Assembly: GCF_009931435.1 (NCBI RefSeq) | Contig: NZ_CP043414.1 | Reading direction: 5' to 3' (one strand) | Origin: Escherichia coli | GTDB taxonomy: Bacteria > Pseudomonadota > Gammaproteobacteria > Enterobacterales > Enterobacteriaceae | DNA: 64,000 nt | Part shown: positions 6,243 through 10,927 of the stretch, in pieces | Numbering within the stretch: the first letter of the stretch is position 1 | How the letters are laid out: each line of letters begins with the position of its first letter | The notes under the pieces: model-generated | What the model was told of the DNA's origin: nothing | Database searches by the model: none | The model's input: only the letters and a program-made list of their open reading frames with translations | Program-made: the position numbers and the translations under genes

Positions 6243-7133
6243 ATGATGTTTAAGCAATACCTGCAAGTAACGAAACCAGGCATCATCTTTGGCAACCTGA
6301 TCTCGGTGATTGGGGGATTCCTGCTGGCCTCAAAGGGCAGCATTGATTATCCCCTGTTTATCTACACGCTGGTTGGGGTGTCACTGGTTGTGGCGTCGGG
6401 TTGTGTGTTTAACAACTACATCGACAGGGATATCGACAGAAAGATGGAAAGGACGAAGAATCGGGTGCTGGTTAAGGGCCTGATCTCTCCTGCTGTCTCG
6501 CTGGTGTACGCCACCTTGCTGGGTATTGCTGGCTTTATGCTGCTGTGGTTTGGCGCGAATCCGCTGGCCTGCTGGCTGGGGGTGATGGGCTTTGTGGTTT
6601 ATGTCGGCGTCTACAGCCTGTACATGAAACGCCACTCGGTCTACGGCACGTTGATTGGTTCGCTCTCTGGCGCTGCGCCGCCGGTGATCGGCTACTGTGC
6701 GGTAACCGGCGAGTTCGATAGCGGCGCAGCGATCCTGCTGGCTATCTTCAGCCTGTGGCAGATGCCTCACTCTTATGCCATCGCAATTTTCCGCTTTAAG
6801 GATTATCAGGCGGCAAACATTCCGGTACTGCCAGTGGTGAAAGGCATTTCGGTAGCGAAAAACCACATTACGCTGTATATCATCGCCTTTGCCGTTGCCA
6901 CGCTGATGCTCTCTCTTGGCGGTTACGCTGGGTATAAATATCTGGTGGTCGCCGCGGCGGTTAGCGTCTGGTGGTTAGGTATGGCGCTGCGTGGTTATAA
7001 AGTTGCTGATGATCGAATCTGGGCACGCAAGCTGTTCGGCTTCTCGATCATCGCCATCACTGCCCTCTCGGTAATGATGTCCGTTGATTTTATGGTGCCG
7101 GACTCGCATACGCTGCTGGCTGCTGTGTGGTAA
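6243..7133 (+). CDS. cyoE: Haem O synthase (protohaem IX farnesyltransferase)
   Basis: Start moved to [19 protein letters not shown], giving 296 aa; UbiA-family membrane protein. Confidence 0.92.
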
Positions 7134-7147
7134 CACAACCTCTCTAT

Positions 7148-7176
7148 AAAAAAGGTGCTACGGCACCTTTTTTATT
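7148..7176 (+). terminator. Rho-independent terminator of the cyo operon
   Basis: aaaaaaggtgc-tacg-gcacctttttt hairpin followed by a T-run, just after the cyoE stop. Confidence 0.75.
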
Positions 7177-7187
7177 GTCTGAGAACA

Positions 7188-7219
7188 GAGATACGGCTAA
7201 TAACCGTATCTCTTGACAG
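7188..7219 (+). promoter_or_regulatory. 10-bp perfect inverted repeat abutting a TTGACA -35-like hexamer; candidate promoter/operator of the toxin-antitoxin operon
   Basis: agagatacgg-N7-ccgtatctct immediately followed by ttgaca, then a 17-nt spacer and taaatt; about 100 nt upstream of the antitoxin ATG. Confidence 0.35.
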
Positions 7220-7317
7220 AGTGAGTATATGCACATAAATTAATCATTCGGTTGATAGCCGTATTATGCATGAGATCGACTCCCTACGATTTCATTCAGT
7301 TAATCAAAGAGGTCATA

Positions 7318-7629
7318 ATGCCTGGAAAAACAGTCGCTCTACCCGATATCGATAAAACGCTGAAAAATGCGCGGGTTGAACTCAAAACCAGTCCCGACGC
7401 CAAAAACAAACTTCGTGAAGCTGCGCAAGCCGTTGGGGTAGATTTAAGCGCTTTTATTTTGAGCGCAGCTATGGAACGCGCCGAAAGTGTGCTTGATAAC
7501 CAACGTCGCCGTGAGCTTTCGAATCAAAGCTGGGAACTGATGAACCAACTCATCGCTGAACCTGCTCAACCGACGCTCGCCCTCAAGGCGTTAATGAAAA
7601 GGAAAAACAGCGATGGTCGACAAGCATGA
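7318..7629 (+). CDS. Type II antitoxin, ribbon-helix-helix DUF1778 family (TacA/AtaR-like)
   Basis: 103 aa from the ATG with RBS aaagagg; N-terminal pattern KNARVELKTSPDAKNKLREAAQAVGVDLSAFILSAAMERAESVL is typical of DUF1778 antitoxins; its stop overlaps the start of the GNAT gene. Confidence 0.75.
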   Translation: MPGKTVALPDIDKTLKNARVELKTSPDAKNKLREAAQAVGVDLSAFILSAAMERAESVLDNQRRRELSNQSWELMNQLIAEPAQPTLALKALMKRKNSDGRQA

Positions 7630-8155
7630 AGAGATTACTCTGCCCATAGTCCTCTCCTGTAATTATCAGTCTGATATTACTTATCCTGGGCAAAAACAGT
7701 TTGATTGCGGTAACCCTGTTATCGATAAATTTGTACGCGCATCGCTAAAGAAAAGTGTGCGTAATAGCGACTGTGCTGCTAAAGCACTTATTGACAGACA
7801 AAGTGGTGAACTGATTGGCATCTGTACTTTTACGGCATATTCGCTGGAAAAACAACGCGTTTCTGGCGTCCTTCAGGGTTCACAACCTTCAGAGATTGGT
7901 GTTGTCAGATTAGTCATGTTAGGGGTAGCGCGGAAATATCAAAAGCGGGGCTTTGGTCAGGACCTACTATGTGATTTTTTTGAACATGTAAAAATAATTC
8001 ACCGGGCATTACCAATTAAAGGGGTTTATCTTGATGCTGACCCTGCCGCCATTAACTTTTATACTCGTCTCGGCTTTGTTCAGCTTTCAGCGAGGCCCAA
8101 TGTTTTCGGTGCTGTACCGATGTTTTTAGCGATTCAGCATATTCTCGCGGCTTAG
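7613..8155 (+). CDS. GNAT-family acetyltransferase toxin (TacT/AtaT/ItaT-like, predicted aminoacyl-tRNA acetyltransferase)
   Basis: 180 aa; FDCG motif near the N-terminus and the acetyl-CoA motif RKYQKRGFGQDLL; 17-nt overlap with the upstream antitoxin. Confidence 0.75.
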   Translation: MVDKHEEITLPIVLSCNYQSDITYPGQKQFDCGNPVIDKFVRASLKKSVRNSDCAAKALIDRQSGELIGICTFTAYSLEKQRVSGVLQGSQPSEIGVVRLVMLGVARKYQKRGFGQDLLCDFFEHVKIIHRALPIKGVYLDADPAAINFYTRLGFVQLSARPNVFGAVPMFLAIQHILAA

Positions 8156-8210
8156 ATTATTATCGCCTCCGGCCATGGCAAGTTTTGCCTCAGCCGGGGA
8201 CTGAGCAGCG

Positions 8211-9146
8211 TTACCACTTTTGTTCAATTGCCCCCGCTTTCATCAGGTCCACATCCTTGCCTTTAATGGTTGCCGTTGCGGCAACCATTGTGGTCCTTAT
8301 TGCTGCACAAGATTTTCGTTCAAATTCCGGTTTATAAAGAATAAGCAACGAATTACTGGTAAATGAATCAAGCCGGTAATCTGTAAAGTTAATATCCAGT
8401 CGGTTTAAGCCGAAAGGTGCAAAGCCGACCGTTTGAATAGTTTCCTTACCTGACGGACTCTTGATGTTGTACGTAACACGAAGATTGGCCACTTCGCCTA
8501 ATTTATTGGTTTTGGCAAAGAGGCTATCCATGCAGGAAAAACCTTTATCTAAAAAATTATCCCGCATTCCAGAACGGGTAATCGTGATCACAGGTAACGT
8601 ATCGTCAACCGTTTTTCTGTCAATCATATCTTTTCGACAGGTGGCCATAAAGTCTTCCGGACCAGTATAAATGTGAACACCCTTATCAAGATATTCTTTC
8701 GCTTTACTACAATCCACCTCGACATACTGACCATTGGCGTACATCATGCCCAACCTGGACCATGCTAAATTCACACCGCGTTGCGTAGCCTGATTAAATA
8801 ACGCATACGCTTTGGCATAATCCACCCGCACCTGTTCACCTTCGTAGTAGATATCCCCCAGCGCTAACGGAGCTTCTTCATCACCTTGTTTAGCGGCTAA
8901 CTCGAACCATTTAATGGCTTCCTGAACGTTGGGTTTGGTATCGTAGCGGGGCTGATAATATTCCCAGCCTAACAGGCTTTGCGCGTCGACATCCCCCGAC
9001 TCAGCCATTTTATACAGTGTCCTTATCACATCGGGGGCAGGCTTTTCACTGTATATGCTGTCATACAATTCATGCGCTTTCTCGCTTGCCAGTGAACCTT
9101 GTGAGGCAATTAATAAAATAGCCAATAAACTCTTTTCATTTAACAT
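8211..9146 (-). CDS. Secreted Sel1-like repeat (TPR-like) protein with a C-terminal domain of unknown function
   Basis: 311 aa; N-terminal signal peptide (LLAILLIASQGSLAS); tandem Sel1-type repeats (AIKWFELAAKQGDEEA..LGDIYYEG...AYALFNQATQRG...LGMMYANG); roughly 170-aa C-terminal region without recognisable motifs. Confidence 0.7.
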   Translation of the reverse strand: MLNEKSLLAILLIASQGSLASEKAHELYDSIYSEKPAPDVIRTLYKMAESGDVDAQSLLGWEYYQPRYDTKPNVQEAIKWFELAAKQGDEEAPLALGDIYYEGEQVRVDYAKAYALFNQATQRGVNLAWSRLGMMYANGQYVEVDCSKAKEYLDKGVHIYTGPEDFMATCRKDMIDRKTVDDTLPVITITRSGMRDNFLDKGFSCMDSLFAKTNKLGEVANLRVTYNIKSPSGKETIQTVGFAPFGLNRLDINFTDYRLDSFTSNSLLILYKPEFERKSCAAIRTTMVAATATIKGKDVDLMKAGAIEQKW

Positions 9147-9562
9147 AAATAACCTTTATGCATCCATCACTATATTTTTCAATAAACCTAACCACCAAAC
9201 ATCCACTTCATGAATAAATACACAGCCATAACAACCTCAGGTAATAAGTAAACATTTAAGCTGAAGCAGAATAACCAGCACCTCCAACACCTCTATTTAT
9301 TGCGATAAAATAACACCATCCTTTAATAAAAAATCACACGCTCATCAACAAATCCGAAAATAATATCATTCGTGGCAGGATAAAATCAGGCGAGCTTTTC
9401 ATTTGTTATATTTAACGCACAAAGTATTAATGGCAAGAATACGAGGGAAGCGCATGCCTGACGTAAAAATCACGCTCTTATGTAATATTTACTCATTAAC
9501 ACTCTGTTTACCCAACATGCGCTCCGCACTACACTATGTGGGCAATTTTTTAAGAGGTGGTA

Positions 9563-10927
9563 ATGAACGATTATAAAATGACGCCAGGTGAGCGGCGCGC
9601 GACCTGGGGTTTAGGGACCGTATTTTCATTGCGCATGCTGGGCATGTTTATGGTACTGCCGGTTCTAACTACGTACGGTATGGCACTGCAAGGTGCCAGT
9701 GAAGCATTAATCGGTATTGCCATTGGTATTTATGGCCTGACTCAGGCCGTTTTTCAGATTCCGTTTGGCCTGCTCTCAGACCGTATTGGTCGCAAACCAT
9801 TAATTGTCGGCGGGCTGGCGGTGTTTGCTGCCGGTAGTGTTATCGCTGCGCTTTCCGACTCAATCTGGGGAATTATTCTGGGCCGGGCGTTACAAGGTTC
9901 TGGAGCGATTGCCGCTGCCGTTATGGCGCTACTTTCTGATCTCACGCGCGAACAAAACCGCACCAAAGCGATGGCGTTTATCGGCGTGAGTTTTGGCATT
10001 ACCTTCGCCATTGCGATGGTACTTGGCCCTATCATCACTCACAAACTTGGACTGCACGCGCTGTTCTGGATGATCGCTATTCTGGCAACGACCGGTATTG
10101 CGTTGACCATTTGGGTTGTGCCCAACAGCAGCACGCACGTACTTAATCGTGAGTCCGGAATGGTGAAAGGCAGTTTCAGCAAAGTGCTGGCAGAACCGCG
10201 ACTGCTGAAACTCAACTTCGGCATTATGTGTCTGCACATGCTGCTGATGTCGACGTTTGTTGCCCTGCCCGGACAGTTGGCTGATGCGGGGTTCCCGGCG
10301 GCTGAGCACTGGAAGGTCTATCTGGCGACGATGTTAATCGCCTTTGGCTCGGTTGTGCCTTTCATTATCTACGCGGAAGTTAAGCGCAAAATGAAGCAAG
10401 TCTTTGTCTTCTGCGTCGGGCTGATCGTGGTTGCGGAAATTGTGTTGTGGAACGCACAAACGCAGTTCTGGCAACTGGTGGTCGGCGTGCAGCTTTTCTT
10501 TGTGGCGTTTAATTTGATGGAAGCCCTCCTCCCCTCGCTTATCAGTAAAGAGTCGCCAGCCGGTTACAAAGGTACGGCGATGGGCGTTTACTCCACCAGC
10601 CAGTTTCTTGGCGTGGCCATTGGCGGTTCGCTGGGTGGCTGGATTGACGGCATGTTTGACGGTCAGGGCGTATTTCTCGCTGGCGCAATGCTGGCCGCTG
10701 TGTGGCTGGCTGTCGCCAGTACCATGAAAGAACCGCCGTATGTAAGCAGTTTGCGCATTGAAATCCCATCGGACATTGCCGCAAACGAGGCGTTAAAAGT
10801 GCGTTTGCTGGAAACTGCGGGTGTCAAAGAAGTGTTGATTGCAGAAGAAGAACATTCGGCTTACGTGAAAATCGACAGCAAAGTGACGAATCGCTTTGAA
10901 GTTGAACAGGCAATTCGTCAGGCATAA
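9563..10927 (+). CDS. yajR: MFS transporter YajR
   Basis: Start set at MNDYKMTPGE with RBS aagagg; about 454 aa; matches recalled YajR. Confidence 0.92.
   Translation: MNDYKMTPGERRATWGLGTVFSLRMLGMFMVLPVLTTYGMALQGASEALIGIAIGIYGLTQAVFQIPFGLLSDRIGRKPLIVGGLAVFAAGSVIAALSDSIWGIILGRALQGSGAIAAAVMALLSDLTREQNRTKAMAFIGVSFGITFAIAMVLGPIITHKLGLHALFWMIAILATTGIALTIWVVPNSSTHVLNRESGMVKGSFSKVLAEPRLLKLNFGIMCLHMLLMSTFVALPGQLADAGFPAAEHWKVYLATMLIAFGSVVPFIIYAEVKRKMKQVFVFCVGLIVVAEIVLWNAQTQFWQLVVGVQLFFVAFNLMEALLPSLISKESPAGYKGTAMGVYSTSQFLGVAIGGSLGGWIDGMFDGQGVFLAGAMLAAVWLAVASTMKEPPYVSSLRIEIPSDIAANEALKVRLLETAGVKEVLIAEEEHSAYVKIDSKVTNRFEVEQAIRQA

What the first reader, a model, noticed from the sequence alone, without database searches (positions are those of the whole stretch)
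8211..9146. Secreted Sel1-repeat protein with an uncharacterised C-terminal domain, convergent with the toxin gene
Signal peptide followed by several Sel1-like repeats (AAKQGDEEA..LGDIYYEG..; ATQRG...LGMMYANG) and a roughly 170-aa C-terminal region without recognisable motifs. Sel1-repeat proteins usually act as adaptors. It sits in the same AT-rich insertion, its 3' end only about 55 bp from the toxin stop, and the AT-rich 9147-9556 stretch upstream is the likely promoter region.
Basis: partly seen in the sequence, partly recalled or inferred. Interest (0 to 1): 0.55.

Follow-up and report, generated by a model that had tools for sequence, protein, structure and literature searches.

The report
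Exported Sel1-repeat protein with IrmA-like domain
This is a real but uncharacterised accessory gene, carried by about a quarter of E. coli strains including BL21, for an exported protein that joins a short Sel1-repeat scaffold to a C-terminal domain resembling the E. coli cytokine-binding protein IrmA, and its place next to the ItaRT toxin-antitoxin pair looks like a coincidence of location.

Summary
The ORF at 8211-9146 (-) is real: 311 aa, annotated in RefSeq as 'tetratricopeptide repeat protein', dN/dS 0.20. It has a signal peptide (A-x-A-type site after A20), three Pfam Sel1 repeats (aa 54-155) and four cysteines that are invariant across the family.

The neighbouring toxin is the published ItaT (PDB 7BYY). 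In E. coli the three genes come and go together (about 1,368 of 5,426 genomes). Elsewhere, Sel1+IrmA-like genes occupy the same yajR-cyoE gap without any toxin-antitoxin pair: E. albertii, two cryptic Escherichia lineages, Pseudocitrobacter, Citrobacter and Salmonella. The sel1 gene is also far more diverged than itaRT (dS 0.41 vs 0.10).

Verdict: an exported two-module binding protein, unrelated to ItaRT, ligand unknown. I found no paper on it. It is a new variant of a known kind, of modest interest.

The parts
8211..9146 (-). Whole gene for the 311-aa Sel1-repeat plus IrmA-like-domain protein. The stop codon is 8211-8213.
   Evidence: ORF list. RefSeq CDS at the same place in a 99.5%-identical genome. 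dN/dS 0.20.
9087..9146 (-). Codons 1-20: predicted Sec signal peptide, with cleavage expected after SLA20. There is no cysteine in the signal peptide, so no lipobox.
   Evidence: Sequence. Invariant A20 and small -3 residue in 14 relatives. Hydrophobicity. Inferred, no predictor was run.
8682..9038 (-). Codons 37-155: Sel1-like repeat solenoid. It has three Pfam-recognised repeats (aa 54-155) preceded by one helix pair.
8592..8681 (-). Codons 156-185: linker with a capping helix (aa 166-178) carrying C170. C170 is likely disulfide-bonded to C146 in the last repeat.
   Evidence: AF2 secondary structure. C146 and C170 are invariant. The bond itself is inferred.
8214..8591 (-). Codons 186-311: C-terminal beta-sandwich, a divergent IrmA-like FNIII domain with the conserved C205/C280 pair.
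9147..9483 (-). Island-specific AT-rich (35% GC) 5' region of the gene and its probable promoter. It derives from the upstream region of a two-gene Sel1 operon whose long first gene has been deleted.
   Evidence: Island boundary. GC. 92% identity of 9190-9620 to the region upstream of the Sel1-499 gene in Escherichia sp. E4385/E4930. No sigma-70 consensus found on this strand.
8167..8199 (.). GC-rich hairpin in the 55-bp convergent spacer between the sel1 and itaT stop codons. It is a possible bidirectional terminator but lacks a canonical U-tract.
   Evidence: RNA folds of both strands, about -28 kcal/mol, z about -2.4. Not called by the terminator scan.
7174..9483 (.). The whole 2.3-kb insertion between the cyoE terminator and the yajR promoter. 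K-12 has 28 bp here.
   Evidence: BLAST against the MC4100 empty site. Present in 1,366 of 5,426 complete E. coli genomes.
7318..7629 (+). Neighbour, not part of the system: itaR, the RHH/TacA-type antitoxin.
   Evidence: RefSeq 'TacA family antitoxin / DUF1778'. Wilcox 2018, PMC6125619.
7613..8155 (+). Neighbour, not part of the system: itaT, the GNAT toxin that acetylates Ile-tRNAIle.
   Evidence: E 1.3e-115 over 180/180 aa to PDB 7BYY. PMC6125619 and PMC7367177.

Best explanation
The gene encodes a Sec-exported, disulfide-stabilised binding protein built from two modules.

Anatomy:
- After removal of a 20-aa signal peptide, the mature protein is about 33 kDa.
- The first module is a short, acidic Sel1-like-repeat solenoid: three canonical repeats plus a capping helix, probably stapled by C146-C170.
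- The second module is a basic beta-sandwich of about 125 aa. It is a distant relative of the E. coli secreted protein IrmA and keeps IrmA's unusual intradomain disulfide (C205-C280).

Mechanism (inferred): each module offers a protein-binding surface, so the protein most likely works outside the cytoplasm as an adaptor or decoy that captures a ligand. The two closest characterised proteins are EsiB, which binds secretory IgA, and IrmA, which binds IL-2, IL-4 and IL-10. By analogy, the most likely ligand class is a host or other extracellular protein, which would make this a colonisation or immune-modulation accessory factor.

History: the gene is the last survivor of an operon of paralogous Sel1+IrmA-like genes that resides in the yajR-cyoE gap of Enterobacteriaceae. 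In this lineage the long upstream paralogue was deleted, leaving the operon's promoter region fused to this gene.

Relation to ItaRT: the gene is not a component of the adjacent toxin-antitoxin module, which is a separately acquired cassette.

What is shown: the ORF, the repeats, the predicted fold, the IrmA resemblance, the distribution and the independent history. What is inferred: export, the disulfides, the binding role and the ligand class.
For: Gene and purifying selection.

Sel1 repeats and solenoid.

Signal peptide and four invariant cysteines, the only four in the protein.

C-terminal fold and IrmA relationship:
- AF2 pLDDT 82.5-86.7.
- HHalign E 7.7e-4 with both cysteines on IrmA Cys21/Cys80. 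The score of 27.9 compares with a shuffle mean of 12.4, sd 2.6, max 21.7.
- Pfam IrmA hits 2 of 20 family members at E<=0.001 and 5 of 20 at E<=0.1.
- IrmA's disulfide and presence in culture supernatant are described in PMC4807369.

Family architecture: always signal peptide + Sel1 repeats + this domain.

Independence from ItaRT:
- TA-less loci.
- Convergent orientation.
- dS 0.41 for sel1 against 0.10 for itaT, and the identity profile.

Operon remnant.

Accessory character:
- Present in 25% of E. coli.
- IS insertions.
- Recurrent truncated alleles.
- Low GC.
Against: - No experiment of any kind bears on this protein or its relatives, and I found no paper on it.
- The window protein itself does not hit Pfam IrmA even at E<=10.
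- My own IrmA HMM gives no significant hit to the family.
- HHalign probability is only 25%, so homology to IrmA is probable rather than proven. Convergence on a common FNIII-like fold remains possible.
- The C-terminal domain is basic (pI 8.9) whereas IrmA is acidic (pI 4.7), so the ligand need not be similar.
- A signal peptide delivers a protein to the periplasm only. Nothing here shows passage across the outer membrane.
- The gene is intact in the laboratory strain BL21 and in environmental isolates. That does not argue for a host-specific role.
- No conserved partner gene was found that could hint at a pathway.
Confidence: 0.55

Rival explanations
1. Periplasmic protective or immunity protein. 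The Sel1-repeat module would bind and neutralise an incoming toxin in the periplasm, such as a type VI secretion lipase/phospholipase or a bacteriocin. This is how the tandem Sel1-repeat immunity proteins PA5086-PA5088 act against PldB in Pseudomonas. The arrays of one to three paralogues at yajR-cyoE would then be orphan immunity genes.
For: - Periplasmic targeting is predicted.
- Tandem paralogue arrays occur in Salmonella, Citrobacter, Pseudocitrobacter and cryptic Escherichia.
- The locus shows presence/absence polymorphism, deep allelic divergence and frequent decay.
- That PA5086-8 are PldB immunity proteins is from my own knowledge and was not checked here.
Against: - No effector gene, T6SS gene or bacteriocin gene is adjacent in any of the roughly 15 loci examined.
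- The family-defining IrmA-like domain has no counterpart in known Sel1 immunity proteins.
Confidence: 0.17
2. Housekeeping-type envelope adaptor. The protein would be a periplasmic scaffold that helps assemble or regulate an envelope machine, in the manner of the Sel1/TPR proteins MotX, AlgK or PilF. The conserved position next to cyoABCDE and yajR might suggest a link to cytochrome bo3 or the YajR transporter.
For: - The chromosomal position between yajR and cyoE is kept across at least five genera.
Against: - The gene is absent from 75% of E. coli, including K-12, with no replacement.
- It is often truncated or IS-disrupted.
- Relatives in Providencia, Affinibrenneria and Achromobacter sit at unrelated loci.
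- The similarity to AlgK, MotX and COA7 is generic to the repeat fold and far below family cut-offs.
- The shared position is equally explained by an insertion hot spot plus vertical inheritance.
Confidence: 0.1
3. Accessory third component of the ItaRT toxin-antitoxin module. The protein would sense envelope stress or phage attack and feed into toxin activation.
For: - Within E. coli the three genes are almost perfectly co-inherited: sel1 in 1,369 genomes and itaRT in 1,368 of 5,426.
- The genes lie only 55 bp apart.
Against: - The transcription is convergent.
- The product is predicted to be exported, whereas ItaT and ItaR are cytoplasmic.
- Many homologues have no TA neighbour, and one has an orphan antitoxin.
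- The two halves of the island have different evolutionary histories.
- ItaRT works as a two-gene module when cloned alone (PMC6125619).
- There is no meaningful match to anti-phage defence models.
Confidence: 0.03
4. Decaying remnant with no current function. After loss of the long upstream paralogue, the short gene would be drifting toward a pseudogene.
For: - The operon partner has been deleted.
- Truncated 248-aa, 198-aa and Shigella sonnei split forms are common.
- IS insertions occur in the gene.
- No consensus promoter was found.
Against: - dN/dS is 0.20 overall and 0.11-0.25 in every segment, across dS 0.41.
- The reading frame is intact at about 311 aa in E. coli, E. albertii and cryptic clades.
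- All four cysteines and the core motifs are invariant.
Confidence: 0.1

Closest known systems
IrmA (interleukin receptor mimic protein A; CFT073 c1275; Pfam PF18673; PDB 5EK5)
   Same: - Both have an FNIII-like beta-sandwich.
- The two conserved cysteines align with IrmA's unusual Cys21-Cys80 disulfide.
- Both are signal-peptide-bearing proteins of Enterobacteriaceae.
   Different: - IrmA is a stand-alone protein of about 130 aa encoded downstream of agn43-yeeR on mobile islands. Here the domain is fused behind Sel1 repeats at a fixed chromosomal spot.
- Identity is only about 18%, with no Pfam hit for this protein.
- This domain is basic and IrmA is acidic.
- IrmA's domain-swapped dimer and cytokine binding are untested here.
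EsiB / c5321 (E. coli secretory-IgA-binding Sel1-repeat protein; PDB 4BWR)
   Same: - It is also an E. coli Sel1-repeat protein.
   Different: - EsiB is about 470-490 aa of repeats only, with no beta-sandwich domain. This protein has three or four repeats.
- Identity is 23%, and the genes are at different loci.
- EsiB's IgA-binding role is from my own knowledge and was not checked here.
Helicobacter cysteine-rich proteins HcpB/HcpC (PDB 1KLX, 1OUV)
   Same: - They are secreted Sel1-repeat proteins with disulfide-stapled helices.
   Different: - Hcp proteins carry a disulfide in every repeat and have no C-terminal sandwich.
- Here there is a single candidate staple (C146-C170) at the end of the solenoid.
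ItaRT (GNAT/RHH type II toxin-antitoxin of E. coli HS and BL21)
   Same: - It is the physical neighbour in the same 2.3-kb island.
- It is co-inherited with this gene within E. coli.
   Different: - It is an unrelated pair of cytoplasmic proteins and a self-sufficient two-gene module.
- It is absent from most loci of the Sel1+IrmA-like family outside E. coli.
- It is far less diverged than this gene.

Membership tests
Sel1-like repeat (SLR) proteins, Pfam PF08238 | Tandem repeats of 36-44 aa matching the Sel1 profile | tested here: met
   Three repeats at aa 54-89, 95-124 and 131-155, with i-E 5.9e-07, 1.2e-03 and 2.2e-03. E 9e-45 to the SLR protein 4bwr.
Sel1-like repeat (SLR) proteins, Pfam PF08238 | Alpha/alpha solenoid fold | tested here: met
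   [not shown]
IrmA family, Pfam PF18673 | Significant match to the family profile | tested here: not met
   The window protein has no hit even at E<=10. Of 20 relatives, 2 hit at E<=0.001 and 5 at E<=0.1, best 6.9e-05. Profile-profile E is 7.7e-4. My own IrmA HMM gives nothing significant. The protein is therefore a distant relative at best, not a member as Pfam defines the family.
IrmA family, Pfam PF18673 | FNIII-like seven-stranded beta-sandwich | tested here: met
   [not shown]
IrmA family, Pfam PF18673 | Intradomain disulfide Cys21-Cys80 | tested here: inconclusive
   C205 and C280 are invariant and align with IrmA's two cysteines (PMC4807369). The model coordinates could not be read, so the Cys-Cys distance and the bond itself are unverified.
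IrmA family, Pfam PF18673 | Domain-swapped dimer through the C-terminal strand, and binding of IL-2, IL-4 and IL-10 | not testable with these tools
   These features are described in PMC4807369. They need biochemistry or multimer modelling.
IrmA family, Pfam PF18673 | Stand-alone small secreted protein encoded after agn43-yeeR | tested here: not met
   Here the domain is the C-terminal part of a 311-aa fusion at yajR-cyoE. The CFT073 irmA locus was inspected for comparison.
Type II GNAT/RHH toxin-antitoxin module (ItaRT) as a three-gene system | Conserved co-occurrence of the third gene with the TA pair across taxa | tested here: not met
   The genes co-occur within E. coli. TA-less loci are found in E. 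albertii, E4930, MOD1-EC7003, Pseudocitrobacter, Citrobacter and Salmonella.
Type II GNAT/RHH toxin-antitoxin module (ItaRT) as a three-gene system | Co-transcription or shared compartment with the toxin | tested here: not met
   The orientation is convergent, with a hairpin between the stop codons. The product is predicted to be exported, whereas the toxin and antitoxin are cytoplasmic.
Sel1-repeat T6SS immunity proteins (PA5086-type) | Gene adjacent to its cognate effector or to a T6SS cluster | tested here: not met
   No effector or T6SS gene is adjacent in any locus surveyed. The nearest candidate is a PLDc_2 gene three genes away in Achromobacter. Orphan immunity genes would escape this test.
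Known anti-phage defence systems (PADLOC) | Match to a defence-system protein model | tested here: not met
   The only hit is a 40-aa repeat-like match to PtuA (E 3e-4, no stretch passing on its own).

The most novel reading that the evidence does not exclude
The Sel1+IrmA-like proteins at yajR-cyoE form an old, vertically inherited family of exported host-protein binders in Enterobacteriaceae. The IrmA domain of pathogenic E. coli would be an excised, mobilised offshoot of this family. Commensal and laboratory strains such as BL21, and nearly all Salmonella, would then carry unrecognised cytokine- or immunoglobulin-binding immunomodulators. The deep allelic divergence of the gene would reflect host-driven diversification.
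Probability: 0.15. Interest if true: 0.6.

Novelty: new variant of a known kind. Interest (0 to 1): 0.35.

Why it matters
If the reading is right:
- It links two separately studied E. coli vaccine-antigen folds (EsiB-type Sel1 repeats and the IrmA sandwich) in one polypeptide.
- It gives IrmA, so far an orphan fold, a set of distant chromosomal relatives across Enterobacteriaceae, including an apparently core-like Salmonella gene.
- It points to simple binding experiments.
- It removes a false lead. The gene should not be treated as part of the ItaRT toxin-antitoxin system when that module is studied in E. coli HS or BL21.

The practical stakes are modest: one accessory gene of unknown ligand.

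Tried and rejected
- **Sequence libraries for the C-terminus.** Pfam, NCBIfam and a PDB profile search gave nothing for the window protein. Only fold comparison and relatives' Pfam scans revealed IrmA.
- **My own IrmA HMM.** Built from 20 close IrmA sequences, it was too narrow. The best hit to the family was E 0.087 among 108 sequences, and the reciprocal search reached E 0.026. This is not counted as support.
- **Species-genome scan.** The 10-sequence alignment found only two loci, so context came mainly from exact-protein look-ups.
- **Giant repeat proteins.** Proteins of 3,584, 3,144 and 1,492 aa hit the C-terminal profile in several stretches. The first is made of Rib-type 'YPDG..V.V.V' repeats. 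I treat these as compositional or generic beta-sandwich matches, not family members.
- **Defence system and phage origin.** PADLOC and PHROGs gave nothing relevant.
- **Structured RNA in the island.** Rfam gave only a sub-threshold STnc50-like hit (E 0.68) over the cyoE terminator.
- **Promoter scan.** No sigma-70-like site lies on the minus strand upstream of the gene.
- **Literature.** I searched by locus tags, protein accession, 'IrmA'+'Sel1' and 'cyoE'+'yajR'+'Sel1' and found no paper on this gene. For Salmonella, STM0438 appears only in a virulence-gene list. Whether STM0437/0438 are the homologues rests on locus-tag numbering alone.
- **Lipoprotein.** Rejected, because there is no cysteine in the signal peptide.
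Full report
**1. What is in the sequence**

The window is Escherichia chromosome: cyoC, cyoD and cyoE (cyoE ending at 7133, +), then yajR (from about 9557, +), yajQ and panE. Aligning the K-12 MC4100 empty site shows homology ending at 7173, just after the cyoE terminator, and resuming at 9484. A 2,310-bp insertion (7174-9483) therefore replaces 28 bp of K-12.

The island is 43% GC against 51-52% in the flanks. It carries three genes:
- an RHH/TacA antitoxin, 7318-7629 (+);
- a GNAT toxin, 7613-8155 (+);
- the ORF under study, 8211-9146 (-), 311 aa.

RefSeq annotates exactly these three genes in a 99.5%-identical E. coli genome. The third is named 'tetratricopeptide repeat protein'.

**2. The neighbours are the published ItaRT module**

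The GNAT protein matches PDB 7BYY over all 180 residues (E 1.3e-115). The ItaT papers place itaRT in E. coli HS and BL21(DE3) and show that the two genes alone behave as a toxin-antitoxin pair (PMC6125619, PMC7367177). BL21 carries the same three-gene island with an intact 936-bp Sel1 gene.

**3. Anatomy of the protein**

- **Repeats.** Pfam finds three Sel1 repeats at aa 54-155. The best solved relative by sequence is the E. coli Sel1-repeat protein c5321/EsiB (4bwr, E 9e-45).
- **Signal peptide.** The N-terminus is MLNEK-SLLAILLIA-SQGSLA|SEK. It has a hydrophobic core and a small-x-Ala site whose Ala20 is invariant in 14 relatives. I infer Sec export. No predictor was available, and there is no lipobox.
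- **Cysteines.** The protein has exactly four (146, 170, 205, 280), and all are invariant in the family. That pattern is expected for an oxidised extracytoplasmic protein.
- **Predicted structure.** AlphaFold2 with a 14-sequence alignment gives pLDDT 86.7 and pTM 0.83. It shows helix pairs from aa 37-155, a helix at 166-178 and a beta-sandwich at 187-310.

**4. The C-terminal domain is IrmA-like**

Fold evidence:
- The next hits are ApaG at 8.3 and generic Ig/FNIII domains at 7.6 or below.

Sequence evidence:
- The window protein has no Pfam IrmA match even at E<=10. A profile search of PDB sequences finds nothing.
- HHalign of the domain-family profile against IrmA aligns 84-85 columns: E 0.03 against the single sequence and 7.7e-4 against a 20-sequence IrmA profile.
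- The score of 27.9 was reached by none of 200 column-shuffled controls (mean 12.4, sd 2.6, max 21.7; reversed profile 14.9).
- The alignment puts invariant C205 and C280 on the two IrmA cysteines. IrmA's authors describe these as forming a disulfide unusual for FNIII domains (PMC4807369).
- When the 20 family domains are scanned individually, Pfam IrmA is the only family hit by more than one member: 2 at E<=0.001, 5 at E<=0.1, best 6.9e-05.
- My own narrow IrmA HMM did not reach significance.

I conclude that the domain has the IrmA fold and is probably, but not certainly, a distant homologue. It does not qualify as a Pfam IrmA family member.

**5. The family and where it lives**

An exhaustive profile search of 1.84 billion representative proteins with the C-terminal domain finds only 36 proteins. 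The full-length ones have the same plan of signal peptide, Sel1 repeats and this domain, mostly in forms of 390-600 aa. AFDB and cluster names place them in these genera:
- Escherichia, Salmonella, Citrobacter and Pseudocitrobacter;
- Pectobacterium, Affinibrenneria, Morganella, Proteus and Providencia;
- Achromobacter.

In Enterobacteriaceae the genes sit in the yajR-cyoE gap and are transcribed from the yajR side:

| Organism | Genes between yajR and cyoE | TA pair |
|---|---|---|
| E. coli (this window) | sel1-311 | itaT, itaR |
| Escherichia sp. E4385 | Sel1-499, sel1-311 | itaT, itaR |
| Escherichia sp. E4930 | Sel1-499, sel1-312 | none |
| E. albertii | sel1-311, 325-aa unknown | none |
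| Escherichia sp. MOD1-EC7003 | sel1-313, LysR fragment, M20 hydrolase | none |
| Pseudocitrobacter | Sel1-484, unknown, sel1-308 | none |
| Pseudocitrobacter (MAG) | Sel1-494, sel1-308 | present |
| Enterobacteriaceae MAG | Sel1-478, sel1-308 | orphan antitoxin only |
| Citrobacter | hok, Sel1-481, Sel1-497 | none |
| Salmonella | Sel1-496, Sel1-484, 326-aa, 116-aa, Sel1-496/497 | none |

The last Salmonella gene belongs to a cluster of 2,412 sequences. Outside the Enterobacteriaceae, the Providencia, Affinibrenneria and Achromobacter genes are isolated inserts at other loci, with no conserved partner.

**6. Relation to the toxin-antitoxin pair**

Within E. coli the genes are co-inherited: sel1 in 1,369 genomes, itaRT in 1,368, and the whole island in 1,366 of 5,426. 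Their histories differ, however.
- itaRT is 97-100% identical in every carrier.
- The window's sel1 allele is at least 95% identical in only 18 genomes and about 89% identical in 1,348.
- Nei-Gojobori estimates against strain CH458:

| Gene | dS | dN/dS |
|---|---|---|
| sel1 | 0.41 | 0.20 |
| itaT | 0.10 | 0.10 |
| cyoE | 0.12 | 0 |
| yajR | 0.23 | 0.03 |

- Identity falls to 57-70% over 9100-9483 (signal peptide and upstream region) and snaps back to 97% at the island boundary.
- The window protein in this exact sequence is named 'MULTISPECIES [Escherichia]'. Its 90%-identity cluster also holds sequences from M863, TW15838 and 79.0191. I believe these are cryptic-clade strains, from my own knowledge.

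Together with the convergent orientation, the predicted export and the many TA-less loci, this rejects a functional three-gene system.

**7. Origin of the upstream region**

Window 9190-9620 is 92% identical to the yajR 5' end plus the region upstream of the Sel1-499 gene in E4385 and E4930. Similarity stops about 20 nt before the Sel1-499 start codon. The last 40 nt or so before the window's ATG resemble the short inter-gene junction before sel1-311. The window allele therefore looks like a two-gene operon from which the long paralogue was deleted, leaving the operon's 5' region in front of the short gene.

A GC-rich hairpin (8167-8199) sits between the two stop codons but lacks a U-tract.

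**8. How it most likely works**

What is shown:
- a conserved gene under purifying selection;
- Sel1 repeats;
- a predicted IrmA-type sandwich;
- four invariant cysteines;
- a patchy, decaying, low-GC accessory distribution, with IS3 and IS1 insertions and truncated forms of 248 aa, 198 aa and in Shigella.

What is inferred: the protein is exported by Sec, oxidised to two disulfides, and acts as a two-surface binding adaptor outside the cytoplasm. The closest characterised proteins for each half are EsiB and IrmA, both host-protein binders of extraintestinal E. coli. IrmA's cytokine binding and presence in supernatants are documented in PMC4807369. EsiB's IgA binding is from my own knowledge.

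I therefore rank a host or extracellular-ligand binding role first. I put about 0.85 on the architecture and on independence from ItaRT, and about 0.3 on the host-ligand specifics.

Rivals:
- a periplasmic anti-toxin 'immunity' protein, suggested by the tandem paralogue arrays and the PA5086 precedent, but with no effector gene nearby;
- an envelope-assembly adaptor, suggested by the fixed locus next to cyo, but the gene is dispensable in 75% of strains;
- a decaying remnant, which is contradicted by dN/dS;
- a TA accessory, which is essentially refuted.

Caveats on the IrmA analogy: the domain here is basic (pI 8.9) while IrmA is acidic (pI 4.7). Passage across the outer membrane is not indicated by anything in the sequence.

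**9. Novelty and verdict**

Searches by locus tag, accession and keyword found no paper on this gene, and databases call it only a TPR/Sel1 protein. The new points are:
- the IrmA-like identity of the C-terminal domain;
- the existence of a small Sel1+IrmA-like family anchored at yajR-cyoE;
- its independence from ItaRT.

That makes it a new variant of known kinds (a Sel1-repeat protein with an IrmA-fold domain), not a new class. Interest is modest at 0.35. It is useful for people working on IrmA, EsiB or ItaRT, and it is cheaply testable because BL21 carries the gene.

Noticed in passing
window 7318-8155 (+): The 'toxin gene' next door is the published ItaRT module. The GNAT protein matches PDB 7BYY over 180/180 aa (E 1.3e-115). 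The pair is 97-100% identical in all roughly 1,368 E. coli carriers, much less diverged than the flanking sel1 gene.
   Followed up: yes
window 8211-9483 vs L002: E. coli has two deeply diverged allele classes of the sel1 gene and its upstream region: dS 0.41, and 57-70% identity in 9100-9483. The window's class is rare (18 of 1,369 carriers at >=95% identity). Its 90%-identity protein cluster includes strains M863, TW15838 and 79.0191, which suggests import by recombination or an old polymorphism.
   Followed up: partly
window 9147-9620; L022/L023 2040-2490: The upstream region matches the 5' region of a 499-aa Sel1 paralogue present in Escherichia sp. E4385 and E4930. The long gene appears to have been cleanly deleted in the window lineage.
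   Followed up: yes
L015 5001-11031 (Salmonella enterica); L020 5048-6025 (E. albertii): Salmonella carries a five-gene cluster at yajR-cyoE: three Sel1+IrmA-like paralogues plus unknown proteins of 326 aa and 116 aa with no Pfam, PADLOC or PHROG match. A 325-aa unknown gene occupies the corresponding position in E. albertii, and the 326-aa protein's cluster includes Pseudocitrobacter. One UniRef entry in that cluster names it 'SgcJ/EcaC family oxidoreductase'. These may correspond to LT2 STM0437/STM0438 by locus-tag numbering, which was not verified. STM0438 is listed as a virulence gene in PMC13101500.
   Followed up: partly
window 8167-8199: A GC-rich hairpin (about -22 to -28 kcal/mol, z about -2.4) lies in the 55-bp spacer between the convergent stop codons. 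It has no U-tract on either strand and could be a bidirectional terminator.
   Followed up: partly
hits H22 and H28 (E. coli JCKP02, PCP07083); proteins P0014, P0017, P0242: The sel1 gene is repeatedly inactivated. IS3 and IS1 elements lie under the match in two genomes. Other variants are a 248-aa form ending inside the C-terminal domain (about 230 contigs), a 198-aa form, and fragments in Shigella sonnei.
   Followed up: partly
L004 6927-7544: An Enterobacteriaceae MAG keeps the TacA-type antitoxin next to cyoE, but no GNAT toxin gene is called in the 306-bp gap. This looks like an orphan antitoxin.
   Followed up: no
L008 2204-2359 (Citrobacter): In Citrobacter a hok/gef-type toxin gene occupies the yajR side of the same gap. 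The yajR-cyoE spacer therefore collects different small toxin modules in different genera.
   Followed up: no
window 7142-7209 (-): A sub-threshold Rfam match to the Salmonella sRNA family STnc50 (23.5 bits against a gathering score of 55, E 0.68) overlaps the cyoE terminator hairpin. It is probably just the terminator.
   Followed up: no
proteins P0063, P0075, P0078: Giant repeat proteins (1,492-3,584 aa) hit the C-terminal domain profile in 4-10 stretches. The one inspected is made of Rib-type repeats. These are likely generic beta-sandwich or compositional similarity.
   Followed up: partly
L012 39724-41438 (E. coli CFT073): While locating irmA in CFT073 I saw another 'SEL1-like repeat protein' (378 aa) followed by a 180-aa hypothetical protein on the same pathogenicity island as agn43-yeeR-irmA. 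It was not compared with the family studied here.
   Followed up: no
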